Positions 1 through 6,566 of a stretch of DNA of 9,302 bases are shown here, piece after piece. The notes under the pieces were generated by a model. It made no database searches. It was given only the letters and a program-made list of their open reading frames with translations, and was not told where the DNA came from. The stretch lies in IMG/VR virus record IMGVR_UViG_2711768034_000012. One strand, given 5' to 3'. Numbering within the stretch: position 1 is the stretch's first letter; each line of letters opens with the position of its first letter. Source of the stretch: a virus. Taxonomy: Duplodnaviria > Heunggongvirae > Uroviricota > Caudoviricetes. The position numbers and the translations under genes are program-made.

Positions 1-267
1 TGTTCAGCAGATTATCAGGCGCAACTGAAGCGGCATAATCTGCGTGGAAGTATGAGCGCAAAAGGTTGCTGCTACGATAATGCCTGCGTGGAAAGCTTCT
101 TTCATTCGCTGAAAGTGGAATGTATCCATGGAGAACACTTTATCAGCCGGGAAATAATGCGGGCAACGGTGTTTAATTATATCGAATGTGATTACAATCG
201 GTGGCGGCGGCACAGTTGGTGTGGCGGCCTCAGTCCGGAACAATTTGAAAACAAGAACCTCGCTTAG
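1..267 (+). CDS. insF: IS3 transposase OrfB (InsF, DDE integrase-type), C-terminal fragment; N-terminus lies outside the window
   Basis: Open frame from window base 1 to the TAG at 265-267. The ORF-track protein 52..267 is the tail of the same frame. Confidence 0.88.
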
Positions 268-297
268 GCCTGTGTCCATATTACGTGGGTAGGATCA
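259..297. repeat. IS3 right terminal inverted repeat (about 39 bp)
   Basis: Terminal sequence after the transposase stop; identified from the recalled IS3 end sequence. The partner repeat is outside the window. Confidence 0.65.
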
Positions 298-386
298 ATC
301 CCCGGTTCAAAGCTCTGCTGAACAATTGCGATCTTTTCCTGTGTGGTACGCCGTCTGCGTTTCTCCGGCCCTAAGACATCAATCAT
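298..386 (-). pseudogene. insC: IS2 OrfA (InsC) 5' fragment, interrupted after about 29 codons by IS3
   Basis: Minus-strand ATG at 386-384 translates as [29 protein letters not shown], then runs into the IS3 end at 297/298. Confidence 0.8.
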
Positions 387-477
387 CTGTTCTCCAATGA
401 CTAGTCTAAAAACTAGTATTAAGACTATCACTTATTTAAGTGATATTGGTTGTCTGGAGATTCAGGGGGCCAGTCTA
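298..477 (-). mobile_element. IS2 left end (IRL plus the start of orfA/insC) in inverted orientation, truncated by the IS3 insertion
   Basis: The reverse complement of 298-477 reads TAGACTGGCCCCCTGAATCTCCAGACAACCAATATCACTTAAATAAGTGATAGTCTTAATACTAGTTTTTAGACTAGTCATTGGAGAACAGATGATTGATGTCTTAGGGCCGGAGAAACGCAGACGGCGTACCACACAGGAAAAGATCGCAATTGTTCAGCAGAGCTTTGAACCGGGGAT, which is the IS2 left end as I recall it. Confidence 0.85.
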
Positions 478-828
478 ACTGTATGTCACGGGCATACAGG
501 AAAAGACATCATGCTCGGTAAAACGTATACCAAAGCAGAATGCAAAGCACTCTTGAATAAAGACCTTGCCACTGTCGCCAGACAAATTAACCCGTACATC
601 GAAGTCGATATACCGGAAACAACGCGCGGCGCTCTTTACTCATTCGTTTACAACGTGGGTGCTGGCAATTTCAGAACATCGACGCTTCTTCGCAAAATAA
701 ACCAGGGCGATATCAAAGGCGCATGTGATCAGCTACGTCGCTGGACATATGCTGGCGGTAAGCAATGGAAAGGTCTCATGACTCGTCGTGAGATTGAGCG
801 TGAAATCTGTTTGTGGGGTCAGCAATGA
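478..828 (+). pseudogene. Phage endolysin R (P21/DLP12-type lysozyme, GH24 family), 3' portion only; 5' part severed by the IS2/IS3 insertions
   Basis: From 478 the frame reads [116 protein letters not shown], matching the C-terminal two thirds of P21-type SAR endolysins. The membrane-anchor and catalytic-Glu region is not present in this copy. The track ORF 343..828 gains its N-terminus by reading through IS2 sequence. Confidence 0.82.
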
Positions 829-1289
829 ACAGAGTAACCGCGATTATCTCCGCTCTGGTTATCTGCATCATCGTCTGCCTGTCATGGGCTGTTAATCATT
901 ACCGTGATAACGCCATTACCTACAAAGCCCAGCGCGACAAAAATGCCAGAGAACTGAAGCTGGCGAACGCGGCAATTACTGACATGCAGATGCGCCAGCG
1001 TGATGTTGCTGCACTGGATGAAAAATACACGAAGGAGTTAGCTAATGCGAAAGCTGAAAATGATGCTCTGCGTGATGATGTTGCCGCTGGTCGTCGTCGG
1101 TTGCACATCAAAGCAGTCTGTCAGTCAGTGCGTGAAGCCACCACCGCCTCCGGCGTGGATAATGCAGCCTCCCCCCGACTGGCAGACACCGCTGAACGGG
1201 ATTATTTCACCCTCCGGGAACGACTGGTAATGATGCAGGCCCAACTTGAAGGTGCTCAGCAATACATAACCGAACAGTGTTTAAAGTAA
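825..1289 (+). CDS. rz: Rz-type i-spanin (inner-membrane spanin subunit)
   Basis: ATG at 825 overlaps the endolysin stop (ATGA). Protein [23 protein letters not shown]... has an N-terminal TM helix followed by a charged coiled-coil periplasmic domain and matches Rz/RzpD-like proteins. Lysis-cassette synteny R-Rz-Rz1. Confidence 0.85.
1045..1230 (+). CDS. rz1: Rz1-type o-spanin lipoprotein, embedded in the +1 frame of Rz
   Basis: 61 aa [24 protein letters not shown]... with a lipobox (VVGC) and a proline-rich mature region ([15 protein letters not shown]); lies entirely inside Rz. Confidence 0.85.
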
Positions 1290-1360
1290 AATCTTAACTA
1301 CAATATGATTCATTTTGATGATTGTTTCATAAGGAACAGTGAAGTAAGATCTAAGAGGAG

Positions 1361-1387
1361 TTAAATTTTATACAGTATAATCATAAT
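1361..1387 (+). promoter_or_regulatory. Candidate sigma70 promoter upstream of trkG (-35 TTAAAT 1361-1366, -10 CATAAT 1382-1387, 15-bp spacer)
   Basis: Hexamer matches in the AT-rich spacer 1290-1426. Such matches are common by chance in AT-rich DNA. Confidence 0.2.
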
Positions 1388-1426
1388 ATTGCAGCAAGGT
1401 GGTTATAATTGAAAGAATATTTAGAT

Positions 1427-2884
1427 ATGAATACATCTCATGTAAGAGTTGTTACTCATATGTGTGGGTTTCTGGTTTGGCTCTATAGTCTTTCAATGTT
1501 GCCACCAATGGTTGTAGCATTGTTTTATAAAGAAAAAAGCCTGTTCGTTTTCTTTATAACTTTCGTTATGTTTTTTTGCATTGGTGGCGGAGCGTGGTAT
1601 ACAACTAAGAAATCTGGCATTCAATTACGTACCCGTGATGGGTTTATTATAATTGTAATGTTTTGGATTTTGTTTTCTGTTATTAGTGCATTCCCTTTAT
1701 GGATTGACTCAGAACTTAATTTAACGTTCATTGATGCTCTGTTTGAAGGGGTTTCTGGAATAACAACAACAGGAGCAACTGTAATTGATGATGTTAGTTC
1801 ATTACCTCGGGCATATTTGTACTATCGGTCACAGTTAAATTTTATAGGTGGTTTAGGAGTTATTGTTCTGGCGGTTGCTGTATTGCCATTATTGGGTATT
1901 GGTGGTGCAAAGCTTTATCAGTCAGAAATGCCGGGGCCATTTAAGGATGACAAACTCACTCCCCGCCTGGCCGATACGTCACGGACACTGTGGATAACTT
2001 ATTCTTTATTAGGTATTGCTTGTATTGTCTGTTATAGACTTGCAGGAATGCCTTTGTTTGATGCTATTTGTCACGGGATTTCCACAGTTTCGCTTGGTGG
2101 TTTCTCAACTCATAGCGAGAGTATCGGATATTTTAATAACTATTTGGTTGAGCTGGTGGCTGGTTCTTTTTCCCTGCTATCGGCTTTCAACTTCACTCTT
2201 TGGTATATTGTTATTAGCAGGAAAACGATAAAACCTTTAATCAGAGATATTGAACTTCGTTTCTTTCTGTTAATAGCCTTAGGGGTGATCATTGTTACCT
2301 CTTTCCAGGTCTGGCATATAGGTATGTATGACTTGCATGGAAGTTTTATTCATTCGTTTTTTCTTGCCAGCTCCATGCTCACTGATAATGGTTTAGCTAC
2401 GCAGGATTATGCAAACTGGCCCACGCACACGATAGTGTTTTTGCTGTCGTCAAGTTTCTTTGGGGGATGTATAGGTTCAACTTGTGGTGGAATTAAGTCA
2501 CTTCGATTTCTTATACTTTTCAAACAAAGCAAACACGAGATAAATCAGCTTTCTCATCCCAGAGCGTTGTTGAGTGTAAATGTAGGAGGGAAGATAGTTA
2601 CAGATCGTGTAATGAGGTCTGTATGGAGTTTCTTTTTTCTTTATACTCTCTTCACGGTGTTTTTTATACTGGTGTTAAATGGTATGGGATATGATTTTCT
2701 TACATCATTTGCAACAGTGGCTGCATGTATTAATAATATGGGATTAGGTTTTGGGGCTACTGCATCGTCATTCGGAGTGCTTAATGACATTGCAAAATAT
2801 TTAATGTGCATAGCTATGATTCTTGGTCGCCTTGAAATTTATCCTGTTATTATATTGTTTTCAGGTTTTTTTTGGCGCTCCTAA
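1427..2884 (+). CDS. trkG: TrkG, Trk-system K+ uptake membrane protein (TrkH/TrkG family)
   Basis: 485 aa from ATG 1427 (MNTSHVRVVTHMCGF...), polytopic and hydrophobic, with the GxG-type selectivity-filter-like repeats typical of TrkH/TrkG. Strongly AT-rich coding sequence. The ORF track starts at an in-frame TTG at 1409, which sits 6 nt after an AGGTGG Shine-Dalgarno-like sequence, so the start is ambiguous. Confidence 0.9.
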   Translation: MNTSHVRVVTHMCGFLVWLYSLSMLPPMVVALFYKEKSLFVFFITFVMFFCIGGGAWYTTKKSGIQLRTRDGFIIIVMFWILFSVISAFPLWIDSELNLTFIDALFEGVSGITTTGATVIDDVSSLPRAYLYYRSQLNFIGGLGVIVLAVAVLPLLGIGGAKLYQSEMPGPFKDDKLTPRLADTSRTLWITYSLLGIACIVCYRLAGMPLFDAICHGISTVSLGGFSTHSESIGYFNNYLVELVAGSFSLLSAFNFTLWYIVISRKTIKPLIRDIELRFFLLIALGVIIVTSFQVWHIGMYDLHGSFIHSFFLASSMLTDNGLATQDYANWPTHTIVFLLSSSFFGGCIGSTCGGIKSLRFLILFKQSKHEINQLSHPRALLSVNVGGKIVTDRVMRSVWSFFFLYTLFTVFFILVLNGMGYDFLTSFATVAACINNMGLGFGATASSFGVLNDIAKYLMCIAMILGRLEIYPVIILFSGFFWRS

Positions 2885-2968
2885 TATATGGCTGATTTAT
2901 AATTGTGAGTTTAATATTATATTGACTCACTCATTGATCCAATACCTAACTTTACCAGCAACACCTCC

Positions 2969-3005
2969 GCCCCCAGTAGCACTGGCTGCTGGGGTGCGTT
3001 TTATT
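2969..3005 (+). terminator. Candidate intrinsic terminator downstream of trkG
   Basis: Hairpin CCCCAGTAGC/GCTGCTGGGG (one mismatch) with a 4-nt loop, followed by TGCGTTTTATT. Confidence 0.35.
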
Positions 3006-3021
3006 CATAAAGCAAGGCTGT

Positions 3022-3810
3022 ATGAGCGAGAAATTAAAGATAGTCTATCGCCCATTACAAGAATTGTCACCGTATGCGCACAACGCCAGGACGCACAGTA
3101 CTGAGCAGGTGGCACAACTGGTAGAAAGTATTAAGCAATTCGGCTGGACTAATCCGGTGCTGATTGACGAAAAGGGCGAAATTATTGCGGGTCACGGTCG
3201 TGTTATGGCGGCTGAAATGCTCAAAATGGATTCTGTTCCGGTCATTGTTCTGTCTGGCCTGACGGATGAGCAGAAAAAGGCGTACCGCCTGGCAGATAAT
3301 CGCCTACCGATGAATGCTGGCTGGGATGAAGATCTGTTGCGGATGGAGCTGTCGGACCTAATCAATGCTGATTTTGATGTCTCCCTGACAGGCTTCGGCC
3401 CGACAGAAATTGATGAACTGTTGACGGATGTTTTGCCCGGTACAGGAAATAAGGAGGAGCCGTATACGACGAAAATTGATACGCCTGTTTATGAGCCGTC
3501 GGGCGGTAAACCGGATATCAGTGAACTGTATGACGATACGAAAACTCAGGAGCTGATCAGCCGGATACGTTCGGCGTCCCTTGATCCTGATATTGAGAAA
3601 TTCCTCCTGTGTGCGGCAGAACGTCACACGGTGTTTAATTTCAGCAGAATTGCGGACTATTACGCTCATGCCCCCGCTGAAATTCAGTGCCTTTTCGAGG
3701 AGTCGGCGCTGGTGATCATTGATTATCAGCAGGCTATTGAAAATGGATTTGTCCGAATGACGCAGCGCATGGTGGCGATCATGCATAGCGGGGAGGAGGA
3801 ATATGCGTGA
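3022..3810 (+). CDS. ParB N-terminal domain (ParB/Srx fold) protein, YnaK-like, with no fused enzymatic domain
   Basis: 262 aa. The N-terminus (KIVYRPLQELSPYAHNARTHSTEQVAQLVESIKQFGWTNPVLIDEKGEIIAGHGRVMAAEMLKMDSVPVIVL...YRLADNRL) has the ParB N-terminal domain signature including a GHGR-type motif. It is followed by DFDVSLTGFGPTEIDELL, as seen after ParB domains in phage ParB-methyltransferase fusions. SD AAGG precedes ATG 3022. Confidence 0.72.
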   Translation: MSEKLKIVYRPLQELSPYAHNARTHSTEQVAQLVESIKQFGWTNPVLIDEKGEIIAGHGRVMAAEMLKMDSVPVIVLSGLTDEQKKAYRLADNRLPMNAGWDEDLLRMELSDLINADFDVSLTGFGPTEIDELLTDVLPGTGNKEEPYTTKIDTPVYEPSGGKPDISELYDDTKTQELISRIRSASLDPDIEKFLLCAAERHTVFNFSRIADYYAHAPAEIQCLFEESALVIIDYQQAIENGFVRMTQRMVAIMHSGEEEYA

Positions 3811-4735
3811 TGATTTTTGCGCCTTTATTCTGACTCACGGGCGACCGGACAAAGTTCTGACTTACCGGACGTGGCGTCGTGCTGGCTATACCGGGAAAAT
3901 TTTTATCGTTGTTGATGATGAAGATAAGACACGGCATCAGTACATGGCTGAATTTGGTGAACAGGTGCTGGTATTTTCCAAAGCCGATATTGCCAGTCGT
4001 TTTGACGAAGCCGATAATTTTGGTGACCACCGCTCAATTTTTTACGCCCGTAATGCCTGTTTCGACCTGGCAAAACTGGTCGGGTGTAAATACTTCATTC
4101 AGCTCGATGATGATTATCACGAGTTCCAGTTTCGGGTGGATCGCAACTATGACCAGGCCTATTTCCCGATAAGGAAACTGGATGCGATCCTTTCTGAAAT
4201 GCTGGCGTATTACGAATCAATACCCGCGCTTTCCATCGCTATGTCGCAGGGCGGGGATTTTCTTGGTGACAATGGCGGCCATGCTTCGTGGGTGAAACGC
4301 AAGGCAATGAACAGCTTTATCTGTTCGGTTGATCGACCGTTCTCATTCATGGGGCGCATTAACGAGGATGTGAATACGTACACGAATCTCGGTCGCCGTG
4401 GTGAATTGTTTATGACGATCGGTGCTGTCCAGTTAGGGCAGAAACAGACGCAGAAAAACAGCGGCGGAATGACCGAGCTGTATCTGGATTCCGGGACCTA
4501 CGTTAAAAGTTTTTATTCCGTCATGTATGCGCCGTCGTGCGTAAAAATCTCACTGATGGGCGCCAGCCATAAACGCATTCACCATCAGGTCACCTGGAAC
4601 AACGCTGCAGTAAAAATCCTTCACGAAAAATACAGGAAGAAGACACCCTGCATATTAATGGGGGTGACAAATGATTCCGTATTCGAAAGTCGAGTCTCTG
4701 GCAGCGTGCCGGATGACTGCACAACAAATCGCTGA
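3803..4735 (+). CDS. Soluble GT-A-fold-like (GT2-like) glycosyltransferase-family protein, hypothetical
   Basis: 310 aa. ATG 3803 overlaps the upstream stop (ATGCGTGA) and is preceded by the strong SD GGGAGGAGGA at 3791-3800. Motif order CAFILTHGRPDKV ... IFIVVDDED ... ARNACFDLAKLVGCKYFIQLDDDY parallels GT-A enzymes (PTYN-like first strand, DD after strand 2, ARN...DxD). No transmembrane segment is evident. Confidence 0.55.
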   Translation: MRDDFCAFILTHGRPDKVLTYRTWRRAGYTGKIFIVVDDEDKTRHQYMAEFGEQVLVFSKADIASRFDEADNFGDHRSIFYARNACFDLAKLVGCKYFIQLDDDYHEFQFRVDRNYDQAYFPIRKLDAILSEMLAYYESIPALSIAMSQGGDFLGDNGGHASWVKRKAMNSFICSVDRPFSFMGRINEDVNTYTNLGRRGELFMTIGAVQLGQKQTQKNSGGMTELYLDSGTYVKSFYSVMYAPSCVKISLMGASHKRIHHQVTWNNAAVKILHEKYRKKTPCILMGVTNDSVFESRVSGSVPDDCTTNR

Positions 4736-4922
4736 CGTTCTGGATGTTGATCTGAACCGACTGAAAGAAAATCGGGAAGCAATGACAAATTTTTACGCGT
4801 CCATCCGTAAGGGCAGAGCGAAAGGTGAAGCCGAGCTACGGGCGGCATTGTTTAAGCTTGCCAGAAAAGGGGATGCCTTTGCCCTGCGCGAACTACTCAG
4901 GGTGGATAAAAATCAGGACTAA
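4671..4922 (+). CDS. Small hypothetical protein (83 aa), possibly a DNA-binding or packaging accessory protein
   Basis: ATG 4671 preceded by a GGGGGTGA SD-like sequence. Overlaps the 3' end of the glycosyltransferase-like gene by 65 nt. Same frame as the downstream terminase-like ORF, separated by TAA plus one codon. Confidence 0.4.
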   Translation: MIPYSKVESLAACRMTAQQIADVLDVDLNRLKENREAMTNFYASIRKGRAKGEAELRAALFKLARKGDAFALRELLRVDKNQD

Positions 4923-4925
4923 CTG

Positions 4926-5552
4926 ATGAGCAGACCGGACTGGGGGGCGTTGCAGCAGGAGTATATTGCTGAATACACCCGCTCCGGTATATCTCCGGTG
5001 GCATGGTGTGAAGCAAGGGGACTGAATTACGCAACAGCCCGTCGTTACATCAAAAAACCTCCGAAAAATGCGCAGACAGAAATGCGCAAAACTGCGCAAA
5101 AAAGTGCGCAGAAAAAATCTGCGCAGACTGCACAAAAGCGGAACGGAAAATCTCAGGAAAAAAAGCCAGTATCCGATGCGTACCTGAATGAGGGCGATGC
5201 GGAAGAAATTTCGTTCTGTCCCGATGAATTCGGCGTTTCTGACCAGCAGGCGAAATTCGCAATGCTGGTTGCCCAGGGGAAAAAACTCGTTGAGGCATAT
5301 CGCCTGGCAGGATACGAGTCAGAGGGGAATGCGGCCTACGTAACCGCCAGCCAGCTCCTAAGAAATCCTAAGGTTTTTCGTGCTATCAGCTACTTCCGCA
5401 ATCAGTACCAGAAACGCTATACCGCAGACCTGGATTTACTGGTGAGTCAGTTGATGGCCATTGTCCAGGCCGACCCCAATCAGTTGGCACAATTTCGCCG
5501 TGTTAACTGCCGTTATTGCTGGGGCGAGAATCATCACTACCGCAGCAGATGA
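4926..5552 (+). CDS. Terminase small subunit-like protein (Terminase_2-type DNA-binding region), possibly C-terminally truncated
   Basis: 208 aa. N-terminal HTH-like segment (ISPVAWCEARGLNYATARRYIKK), a K/Q/A-rich low-complexity linker, then QQAKFAMLVAQGKKLVEAYRLAGYESEGNAAYVTASQLLRNPKVFRAI, which resembles the conserved DNA-binding motif of phage small terminases. Ends abruptly (RVNCRYCWGENHHYRSR*) with no large terminase gene following. Confidence 0.55.
   Translation: MSRPDWGALQQEYIAEYTRSGISPVAWCEARGLNYATARRYIKKPPKNAQTEMRKTAQKSAQKKSAQTAQKRNGKSQEKKPVSDAYLNEGDAEEISFCPDEFGVSDQQAKFAMLVAQGKKLVEAYRLAGYESEGNAAYVTASQLLRNPKVFRAISYFRNQYQKRYTADLDLLVSQLMAIVQADPNQLAQFRRVNCRYCWGENHHYRSR
5069..5133 (+). 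repeat. Array of five TGCGCA hexamers plus one degenerate TGCACA, spaced 8-15 bp, inside the terminase small-subunit-like gene
   Basis: TGCGCA at 5069, 5083, 5093, 5105 and 5120; TGCACA at 5128. Encodes the AQK/SAQ-rich linker. Confidence 0.6.
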
Positions 5553-5676
5553 AGCACCTACGATAACCAGAAAAAAAGCCTCCCCGGCTGCCGTGATCGC
5601 AAAAGCCAGTGCTGAGGCGATTAGTTGATTTTCCGTTATTCCTCCTGTGGTACTGCCCTACAGGGGGACGCATTGA

Positions 5677-6138
5677 ATGAGGTTATGGATGTTTATTCTT
5701 AATCAGAAAATTATCATTGGTGGAGAACGCTGGTTTACGCCAATGAAGGACTTAAAACCTGTAGACGGGTTAAAACTGTTGGTGGCAAGCAGCGATAACG
5801 ATCAGTATCGCTCCCGTAATGCATTAATCCGTCGCCACATTGAGAAAATGGATGCCAGTTTGCACGTCGGAACGAAGGAGTTTGATATTTCAAAGGTTTC
5901 CGAGGTGGATTCTGTTGATGATTTACTCATTGATAATGCCGCTCGTTATCTGCTGAAAGACTGGAAAGGGGTTGGTGAACTGGTTAATGGTGTTGAGGTT
6001 GCACTGGAATATACGGCAGAACGAGGGATCGCGCTGCTTAAGCAGAATCCAGAGTTGTACTGGCAGATCCTTGCAGAAGCAGCCAGCATCGCCCAGGGTA
6101 AAGAGCAGCAGAAGCAGGATACGATAAAAAAGCCATAG
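5677..6138 (+). CDS. Tail assembly chaperone (lambda gpG-like)
   Basis: 153 aa acidic protein. ATG 5677 is preceded by GGGGG at 5663-5667; an alternative in-frame ATG is at 5689. It directly precedes a -1-frame ORF and the tape-measure gene, the G/GT/H synteny of siphovirus tail modules. Confidence 0.6.
   Translation: MRLWMFILNQKIIIGGERWFTPMKDLKPVDGLKLLVASSDNDQYRSRNALIRRHIEKMDASLHVGTKEFDISKVSEVDSVDDLLIDNAARYLLKDWKGVGELVNGVEVALEYTAERGIALLKQNPELYWQILAEAASIAQGKEQQKQDTIKKP
6126..6132 (+). promoter_or_regulatory. Candidate -1 programmed ribosomal frameshift slippery heptamer A-AAA-AAG
   Basis: In-frame X-XXY-YYZ heptamer two codons before the chaperone stop (TAG 6136-6138). The -1 frame is open from here through 6446. 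Confidence 0.5.
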
Positions 6139-6446
6139 CTGCCCAGCGGTGGTTATCGGAGTTCGGGGGAGAAAGGGGGGAAAAGGCAAGATGGAAGCGA
6201 GAAAAACTCAGGTTGCCACCGATACCGGAACCAGAAATAGACCCGGTGCTTAAGGAGTTGTTGTACGCCTATTCGGTAATATCCCGTGCCCGACGTTATG
6301 CTGGAATGGCTGGGGTGCCTTTGCCTTTATCTCTGACAGAGATAAATGAATATTTAGCCACTCATCCGGTATTGATTGAGCGCGATGAATTTGAAGCAGT
6401 GATCTTTGCACTGGATGACCAGTATTTTCAGGAGCAGTGTGTGTAG
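6132..6446 (+). CDS. T segment of the tail assembly chaperone G-T frameshift fusion (lambda gpT-like)
   Basis: The -1 frame relative to the chaperone gene is open from 6132 to TAG 6444-6446 and encodes ...LPPIPEPEIDPVLKELLYAYSVISRARRYAGMAGVPLPLSLTEINEYLATHPVLIERDEFEAVIFALDDQYFQEQCV. The track ORF 6213..6446 starts at an internal TTG. Confidence 0.55.
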   Translation, partial: AIAAQRWLSEFGGERGEKARWKREKLRLPPIPEPEIDPVLKELLYAYSVISRARRYAGMAGVPLPLSLTEINEYLATHPVLIERDEFEAVIFALDDQYFQEQCV

Positions 6447-6566
6447 TTGTTAATTACGTACACTCTGTTACAGAGATGTGATGGTGTCTTTAATTAAATC
6501 GATGATGCTCCTGGAGAAAAGCATTGCGTGGCCTCGTAATCGCTATATCTACTATTATGTCGCCTG

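What the first reader, a model, noticed from the sequence alone, without database searches (positions are those of the whole stretch)
5400..5760. Head module missing: terminase small subunit abuts the tail chaperone
A terminase small-subunit-like gene ending at 5552 is followed after 124 bp by a tail assembly chaperone gene. Large terminase, portal, protease/scaffold, capsid, head-tail connector and tail tube genes are all absent. The terminase-like protein ends abruptly after its DNA-binding region. This marks a large internal deletion junction somewhere in about 5500-5676.
Basis: inference. Interest (0 to 1): 0.35.

Follow-up and report, generated by a model that had tools for sequence, protein, structure and literature searches.

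The report
Head-gene deletion scar in Rac-type prophage
This is the scar of a 9.1-kb deletion that removed all the head-building genes from a Rac-type prophage of Escherichia coli, which is ordinary prophage decay of a well-known kind.

Summary
Window 4926-5552 encodes the first 205 residues of a 364-residue small terminase subunit, plus three out-of-frame residues. Window 5677-6138 is the tail assembly chaperone gene ydaY. Intact relatives carry about 9.1 kb between these two points: the rest of terS, then terL, portal, minor head protein, scaffold, P22-type capsid, connector genes, tail terminator and most of the tail tube gene.

The junction maps to window 5538-5541, a 4-bp microhomology (TACC). 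That is 6 of 7 bases if the flanking CA is counted. The last 87 bases of the tube gene survive at 5542-5628.

The same window holds two more deletion scars. One is at 8131, joining the tape measure gene to the 3' end of the gpK-like gene. The other is at 8337-8340, joining the gpI-like gene to sitB, so sitA is left without sitBCD. There are also nested IS fragments in the lysozyme gene.

All three junctions recur in independent assemblies of one small E. coli lineage. Junction 1 is in none of 5,426 complete RefSeq genomes. K-12 Rac lost its head genes through a different deletion.

This is a new deletion allele of a known phenomenon. There is no sign of a new mechanism or function, and interest is low.

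The parts
4926..5541 (+). 5' 56% of the small terminase gene (codons 1-205 of 364). It keeps the N-terminal helix-turn-helix-like region, the basic low-complexity linker and the first part of the Terminase_2 domain.
   Evidence: 100% identity over 205 aa to L012 13827-14921; phrog_51 at E=1e-64; Terminase_2 positions 20-84 of 141 here against 20-129 in the full protein.
5538..5541 (.). Deletion junction 1. TACC is shared by both parental sequences. The extended imperfect overlap is 5535-5541, CA[C/T]TACC.
   Evidence: Three-way alignments with L012, L002 and L001. In a random-breakpoint simulation, P(microhomology of 4 bp or more) = 0.018.
5542..5628 (+). 3' remnant of the tail tube gene: last 28 codons (AADEAPTITRKKASPAAVIAKASAEAIS) plus the stop. 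It is out of frame with terS. Read in the terS frame it adds RSR and then the TGA stop at 5550-5552.
   Evidence: Translation comparison with the L002 tube gene 16132-17094, which matches Pfam Phage_tube_2 at E=9e-32.
5677..6138 (+). ydaY, a gpG-like tail assembly chaperone. Gene callers start it at 5689; RefSeq starts it further in.
   Evidence: phrog_313 at E=4e-46; PF27119 Phage_YdaY on the identical gene in L003-L010; it sits between the tube and tape measure genes in intact relatives.
6126..6446 (+). Putative -1 frameshift site A_AAA_AAG (6126-6132) followed by the gpT-like extension, which is open from 6102 to 6446 in the -1 frame.
   Evidence: The fused 256-aa product matches phrog_313 over positions 13-246 of 258 in one stretch, at E=6e-51 and with a higher score than G alone. 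The site is conserved in L001, L002, L011 and L012.
6612..8132 (+). Tape measure gene truncated at codon 506 of 1,077. The stop codon TAA is created at junction 2.
   Evidence: TMP_2 at E=3e-82; alignment to L002 18078-21311.
8131..8131 (.). Deletion junction 2. It joins the tape measure gene to the 3' end of the gpK-like C40 peptidase gene. 3,367 bp are lost, with 1 bp of overlap.
8132..8340 (+). Last ~124 bases of the gpK-like gene and roughly the first 50 codons of the gpI-like tail assembly gene.
   Evidence: Lambda_tail_I at E=2e-14; alignment to L002 22964-23173.
8337..8340 (.). Deletion junction 3, with TACG shared. It joins the gpI-like gene to codon ~17 of sitB. About 11.5 kb are lost: J, lom, tail fibre genes, sitD, sitC and most of sitB.
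8388..9302 (-). sitA, intact at 304 aa but now without sitBCD.
   Evidence: 99.8% identical to L013 3628-4593, annotated SitA; Pfam ZnuA.

Best explanation
The window is the late region of a Rac-type lambdoid prophage. In the long contigs that carry the same junctions it lies between ttcA and uspF-ompN.

One RecA-independent illegitimate recombination event removed about 9.1 kb. The likely routes are replication slippage or microhomology-mediated end joining at the 4-bp TACC repeat. The deletion runs from codon 205 of terS to 87 bases before the end of the tail tube gene.

The result is a dead fusion. The terS reading frame runs into the tube remnant out of frame and stops after three codons. 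With no terminase, portal, capsid, connector or tube, the element cannot make virions.

Two further deletions and IS insertions in the same lineage show continuing decay. The deletion and its endpoints are shown directly. The molecular route is inferred from the microhomology and from the absence of IS or long repeats at the joint.
For: - The flanks are collinear with intact relatives up to the same nucleotide. Window 478-5541 matches L012 9380-14442 at 99.1%, and 5100-5541 is 100% identical to the listed top hits among 40 complete genomes at 99% identity or better. Window 5535-8139 matches L002 17001-19605 at 99.8%.
- The gap in the relatives is 9,045-9,094 bp. It holds terL, portal (DUF4055), a minor head protein, DUF6651, a P22-type capsid gene, five small genes, the tail terminator and the tube gene.
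- Both cut genes are truncated and joined out of frame.
- The TACC microhomology has P=0.018 by chance. Junction 3 also has 4 bp of microhomology.
- The 40-base junction string is present in all eight independently assembled loci L003-L010, three of them from contigs over 1 Mb.
- EAEC 042 carries the full-length counterpart, 042p3, next to uspF-ompN as in the long contigs. It has sitABCD at the tail end, as published.
Against: - Four bases of microhomology is weak evidence for any one repair pathway.
- No genome was found that is ancestral to this lineage and still intact. The parental sequences are therefore inferred from relatives. The left flank is closest to a prophage at the lambda attachment site in YJ6, and the right flank is closest to AST215, so the ancestor was a mosaic of these.
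- Nothing tested here says whether the 208-aa fragment is expressed or inert.
Confidence: 0.93

Rival explanations
1. Natural gene order of a satellite or packaging-hijacker element (PICI-like). Such an element would keep a small terminase and tail genes and borrow heads from a helper phage.
For: Known phage satellites do carry small-terminase-like genes without head genes (general knowledge). The terS fragment keeps its N-terminal DNA-binding-like region.
Against: - The terS ORF is cut inside its Terminase_2 domain and ends in three out-of-frame residues taken from a tube-gene remnant.
- Both flanks are 99-100% identical to ordinary full-length prophages.
- The tail module is itself broken by two more deletions.
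- The lysozyme gene upstream is interrupted by IS fragments.
Confidence: 0.02
2. Assembly artefact: a chimeric contig joining two parts of a prophage.
For: The source contig (L005) ends in an IS element two bases before the window, so the assembly is fragmented.
Against: The identical junction occurs in 24 contigs that were read, from NCBI, ENA and Logan assemblies. Three of them are 4.6-Mb contigs. All three junctions are the same wherever the contig reaches them.
Confidence: 0.01
3. The deletion is real, and the retained terS fragment has since been kept by selection. It might, for example, act as a dominant-negative inhibitor of packaging by superinfecting Rac-family phages.
For: The ORF is intact and identical on about 14 contigs. 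Domestication of defective-prophage genes is a documented theme (papers listed).
Against: - The carriers are about 99.9% identical over the whole 9 kb, so the conservation is uninformative.
- No promoter-like site lies ahead of the gene in 4600-6700.
- The zinc-knuckle pair and the C-terminal half are lost.
- The lineage is small, and the allele is absent from 5,426 complete genomes.
Confidence: 0.04

Closest known systems
Rac cryptic prophage of E. coli K-12 (ynaK-ydaY-ynaA region)
   Same: - The two share the backbone: Rz, trkG, the ParB-like gene, ydaY and the tape measure gene are 99.1-99.4% identical.
- Long contigs carrying the window's junctions place the element between ttcA and uspF-ompN. 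K-12 Rac sits next to uspF-ompN and is integrated in ttcA (PMC4632033).
- Both have lost the head module and carry a truncated tape measure gene.
- Loss of structural genes in Rac is noted in PMC5700373.
   Different: - The endpoints differ. K-12 joins ynaK (window-equivalent 3275) to ydaY (window-equivalent 5787) with a 2-bp overlap. That also removes the glycosyltransferase gene, terS and the start of ydaY.
- K-12 keeps lom, stf and tfa and has no sit genes. This element keeps the terS fragment and sitA but has lost J, lom, stf and tfa.
Prophage 042p3 (ROD21) of enteroaggregative E. coli 042
   Same: - It sits next to uspF-ompN, like the long contigs that carry the window's junctions.
- The gene order is the same, and it has sitABCD at the tail end (PMC2808357).
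- It matches the window at 92-99% identity in four collinear blocks.
   Different: 042p3 is full length. It carries the 9,094 bp, 3,367 bp and 11,529 bp that are missing here.
Lambda gpG/gpGT tail assembly chaperone with programmed -1 frameshift
   Same: - The gene sits between the tube and tape measure genes.
- The slippery heptamer A_AAA_AAG lies just before the stop codon.
- The -1 frame is open and gives a 256-aa fusion that matches one chaperone family end to end.
   Different: Sequence similarity is to phrog_313 and the YdaY family, not to lambda G itself. Frameshifting was not measured.

Membership tests
Small terminase subunit (Pfam Terminase_2 / phrog_51) | Significant match to the family profile | tested here: met
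   phrog_51 at E=1e-64; Terminase_2 at 26.6 bits against a cut-off of 26.1.
Small terminase subunit (Pfam Terminase_2 / phrog_51) | Full-length domain and C-terminal part, as in functional homologues | tested here: not met
   Only profile positions 20-84 of 141 and 1-183 of 261 are covered. 205 of 364 residues are retained. It is a gene fragment.
Small terminase subunit (Pfam Terminase_2 / phrog_51) | Adjacent large terminase gene | tested here: not met
   There is no terL in the window. In the relatives terL overlaps the end of terS.
Tail assembly chaperone (gpG/gpGT type) | Match to a chaperone family and position between the tube and tape measure genes | tested here: met
   phrog_313 at E=4e-46; position confirmed in four intact relatives.
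Tail assembly chaperone (gpG/gpGT type) | -1 slippery site giving a longer GT product | tested here: met
   A_AAA_AAG at 6126-6132; the fused product matches phrog_313 positions 13-246 of 258. This is sequence evidence only; frameshifting was not assayed.
Rac-type cryptic prophage | Integration at ttcA with Rac-type integrase, recET and trkG | tested here: met
   L004, which carries the same junctions, reads ttcA-like (ATP_bind_3), integrase, RecT, RecE fragment, then lysozyme, trkG and onward to uspF, ompN and the PFOR gene. K-12 Rac has the same right-hand neighbours uspF, ompN and nifJ, and the ttcA site is described in PMC4632033.
Rac-type cryptic prophage | Defective: lacks genes needed for virion production | tested here: met
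   Three internal deletions totalling about 24 kb, mapped against EAEC 042.
Phage satellite (PICI-like) | Compact, intact element with its own packaging-redirection gene and no truncated structural genes | tested here: not met
   terS, the tube gene, the tape measure gene, gpK, gpI and sitB are all truncated at junctions.

The most novel reading that the evidence does not exclude
The N-terminal 205-residue terS fragment may be retained because it interferes with DNA recognition or packaging by incoming Rac- or 042p3-type phages. It would then be a prophage-remnant defence gene created by the deletion itself.
Probability: 0.03. Interest if true: 0.5.

Novelty: new member of a known kind. Interest (0 to 1): 0.08.

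Why it matters
It matters little beyond annotation.

- The 208-aa 'terminase small subunit' and the 506-aa 'tape measure protein' in this lineage should be marked as pseudogene fragments.
- sitA here is an orphan of a broken sit operon, so the strain should not be scored as sit-positive for iron/manganese uptake.
- The three mapped joints give a clean, nucleotide-level example of stepwise prophage decay by short-homology deletions.
- K-12 Rac also lost its head genes, but through a deletion with different endpoints.

Tried and rejected
- I scanned the GTDB species-representative genomes for the 29-base junction string and found no match. This is uninformative, because each species has only one genome there.
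- I searched 5,426 complete RefSeq E. coli genomes for a place spanning the junction and found none. The allele turned up only through an exact-protein look-up.
- An Rfam scan of the window found no match.
- The promoter and terminator scan of 4600-6700 found nothing at the junction. The terminator-like hits at 5069-5136 on the minus strand are the TGCGCA(G)AAAA repeats that encode the basic linker of terS.
- The repeat search found no long direct or inverted repeat flanking any junction, and no IS at junctions 1-3. That argues against homologous or IS-mediated deletion.
- Literature searches for 'Rac prophage' together with sitABCD or terminase found nothing specific.
- I considered and rejected three alternatives: a satellite element, an assembly artefact, and recombination between two resident prophages. 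The last is unlikely because the chromosomal flanks ttcA and uspF are preserved in L004.

Full report
**What is in the window.** ORF listing and family scans give the following order:
- IS3-family transposase fragments, 1-~477
- the 3' part of a phage lysozyme gene
- an Rz/Rz1-type lysis gene
- trkG, 1409-2884
- a ParB/Srx-like gene, 3022-3810
- a TAGT-family glycosyltransferase gene, 3803-4735
- a small ORF, 4671-4922
- the 208-aa small-terminase-like ORF, 4926-5552
- ydaY, 5677-6138
- an ORF with a weak tail-chaperone match, 6213-6446
- a 506-aa tape measure ORF, 6612-8132
- an 86-aa gpI-like ORF, 8153-8413
- sitA on the minus strand, 8388-9302

The window is 100% identical to a 21-kb E. coli draft contig (GCA_001268745.1, locus L005) at an offset of two bases.

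**Checking the observation.** The 4926-5552 ORF matches phrog_51 (small terminase) at E=1e-64. It only just passes Pfam Terminase_2, at 26.6 bits against a cut-off of 26.1, because it covers just positions 20-84 of the 141-position profile. The gene at 5677-6138 matches phrog_313 'tail assembly chaperone' at E=4e-46, and the precomputed Pfam hit is Phage_YdaY. Nothing between or around them resembles a large terminase, portal, scaffold, capsid or connector gene.

**Mapping the deletion.** A megablast of 4600-6700 against complete E. coli genomes and against phage records split the query at window 5535-5541. No record covered both halves in one place.

I fetched four relatives that carry both halves:
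- 'Salmonella phage SPF_0923', ON032529.1. This record includes E. coli-type host flanks.
- E. coli AST215
- E. coli YJ6
- E. coli 042

In each, terS is 360-364 codons. It is followed by these genes before ydaY:
- terL (Terminase_6N/6C)
- a DUF4055 portal-type gene
- a minor head protein gene
- DUF6651
- a P22-type major capsid gene
- five small genes
- a tail terminator gene
- a 320-codon tail tube gene (Phage_tube_2)

The pairwise alignments are as follows:
- Window 478-5541 matches YJ6 9380-14442 at 99.1%.
- Window 5100-5541 is 100% identical to the listed top hits among 40 complete genomes at 99% identity or better.
- Window 5535-8139 matches AST215 17001-19605 at 99.8%.

The material missing from the window is 9,045 bp in YJ6, 9,046 bp in SPF_0923 and 9,094 bp in AST215 and 042.

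**The joint itself.** The three sequences at the joint are:
- Left parent: ...GAGAATCATCACTACC|AGTGGCGC
- Right parent: ...CAATTGAGCATTACC|GCAGCAGATG
- Window: ...GAGAATCATCACTACCGCAGCAGATG

The exact overlap is TACC at 5538-5541. With the flanking CA it is 6 of 7 bases. In 200,000 random breakpoint pairs drawn from the YJ6 prophage, 1.8% had an overlap of 4 bp or more. No IS element or long repeat lies at the joint.

The terS frame (position 4926, phase 0) and the tube frame (phase 1) differ. The product is therefore TerS residues 1-205 followed by RSR and a stop. The 205 residues are 100% identical to the YJ6 protein. The last 28 codons of the tube gene survive untranslated at 5542-5628.

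The cut falls right after the first CxxC motif (NCRYCWGENHHY|QW). It removes the second motif (CPKCC) and the whole C-terminal half. That these two motifs form a zinc-binding pair is my inference from the sequence pattern.

**Is it real?** An exact-protein look-up found the 208-aa product in 28 collection blocks, and 24 contigs were read. All eight loci shown have the same gene order. Three of the contigs that carry it are longer than 1 Mb. The sources are NCBI, ENA and Logan assemblies. The 40-base strings across junctions 1 and 2 occur once in every one of these loci. The junction 3 string occurs in all six loci that reach that far. So this is a lineage marker, not a misassembly. None of 5,426 complete RefSeq E. 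coli genomes has junction 1.

**Surroundings.** Two more scars lie in the window.

Junction 2, at 8131, joins tape measure codon 506 of 1,077 to the last ~124 bases of the gpK-like C40 peptidase gene. The overlap is 1 bp, and the joint creates the TAA stop. It removes 3,367 bp: the rest of the tape measure gene, the gpM-like and gpL-like genes and most of the gpK-like gene.

Junction 3, at 8337-8340 (TACG), joins roughly codon 50 of the gpI-like gene to roughly codon 17 of sitB. It removes about 11.5 kb: J, lom, the tail fibre genes, sitD, sitC and most of sitB. sitA is left intact but alone.

At the left end the lysozyme gene is interrupted by IS3-family fragments. The window and two longer loci of the same lineage (L003, L004) differ from each other upstream of this point. 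L004 has also lost everything between recE and the lysozyme gene. Decay is therefore still going on within the lineage.

The long contigs place the element between ttcA with a Rac-type integrase on one side and uspF-ompN on the other. K-12 Rac has the same right-hand neighbours, and ttcA is its published integration site (PMC4632033).

**Comparison with what is known.** K-12 Rac shares this backbone at 99% identity, but its joint is different. There ynaK, at window-equivalent 3275, is fused to ydaY, at window-equivalent 5787, with a 2-bp overlap. The tail-region deletions of the two elements cannot be derived from one another. K-12 keeps lom, stf and tfa, and this element keeps more of the tape measure gene. 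K-12's head deletion spans the window's junction 1, so it could be either a direct 11.6-kb loss or a secondary one. I cannot tell which.

[quoted passage not shown] It also describes sitABCD as cargo at the tail end of lambdoid prophages, in EAEC 042 prophage 042p3 (PMC2808357) and in 70% of the lambda-type coliphages of one infant-gut collection (PMC6969025). Prophage 042p3 is the published full-length counterpart next to uspF-ompN.

**The chaperone gene.** The heptamer A_AAA_AAG sits at 6126-6132, in the right phase and one codon before the stop. The -1 frame is open from 6102 to 6446. The 256-aa fused product matches phrog_313 in a single stretch over positions 13-246 of 258, and it scores higher than the unfused protein. 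This is the usual gpG/gpGT arrangement of long-tailed phages, as far as I know the field. It is conserved in all the relatives.

**Verdict.** The finding is correct in observation and in interpretation, and the junction is now placed to within four bases. It is a previously undescribed deletion allele of a well-known process, the stepwise decay of a Rac-type prophage by short-homology deletions and IS insertions. Nothing points to a new mechanism. The only non-trivial reading left open is that the terS fragment has acquired an anti-phage role. I give that about 3%, and nothing here supports it.

Noticed in passing
window 8337-9302: sitA is intact but sitB is cut at about codon 17, and sitC and sitD are gone, removed by deletion junction 3 (TACG microhomology). 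The sit iron/manganese transporter is therefore broken in this lineage even though a sitA gene would be detected.
   Followed up: yes
window 8131: A second internal deletion of 3,367 bp joins tape measure codon 506 to the 3' end of the gpK-like gene. The overlap is only 1 bp, and the joint creates the TAA stop.
   Followed up: yes
window 6126-6446: A conserved A_AAA_AAG slippery site lies at the end of ydaY, and the -1 frame is open into the 6213-6446 ORF. The fused 256-aa product matches one tail-chaperone family end to end. RefSeq annotates ydaY and the downstream ORF as separate genes.
   Followed up: partly
window 1-477: There are nested IS3-family fragments. The C-terminal end of a transposase (rve_3/rve_2) lies on the plus strand at 52-267, next to the start of an HTH_Tnp_1 transposase gene on the minus strand at 264-431. 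Together they interrupt the 5' part of the lysozyme gene. The window and two longer loci of the same lineage (L003, L004) differ upstream of window position 298.
   Followed up: partly
window 3022-4735: A ParB/Srx-like gene overlaps a TET-associated glycosyltransferase (TAGT) family gene (E=1e-34; RefSeq calls it 'GREB1-related'). The pair sits just upstream of the packaging genes and is conserved in all intact relatives. It may be a DNA-modification pair, and K-12 Rac retains only the first 87 codons of the ParB-like gene (ynaK).
   Followed up: no
window 4671-4922: A small ORF (69-83 aa) directly upstream of terS matches the middle of a different small-terminase family: phrog_309, positions 145-218 of 319, E=2.5e-22. 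Its role is unknown.
   Followed up: no
L001/L013 (ON032529.1): The record deposited as 'Salmonella phage SPF_0923, complete genome' ends in uspF, ompN and a pyruvate-flavodoxin oxidoreductase fragment, and it starts inside the lysis genes. It looks like a prophage region with E. coli-type host flanks, not a packaged phage genome.
   Followed up: no
L012 (E. coli YJ6, NZ_AP023235.1): A late region that is 99.1% identical over window 478-5541 (100% over 5100-5541) sits in a prophage integrated next to ybhC with a lambda-type integrase, not at ttcA. The packaging and head module therefore moves between prophages with different integration modules.
   Followed up: no
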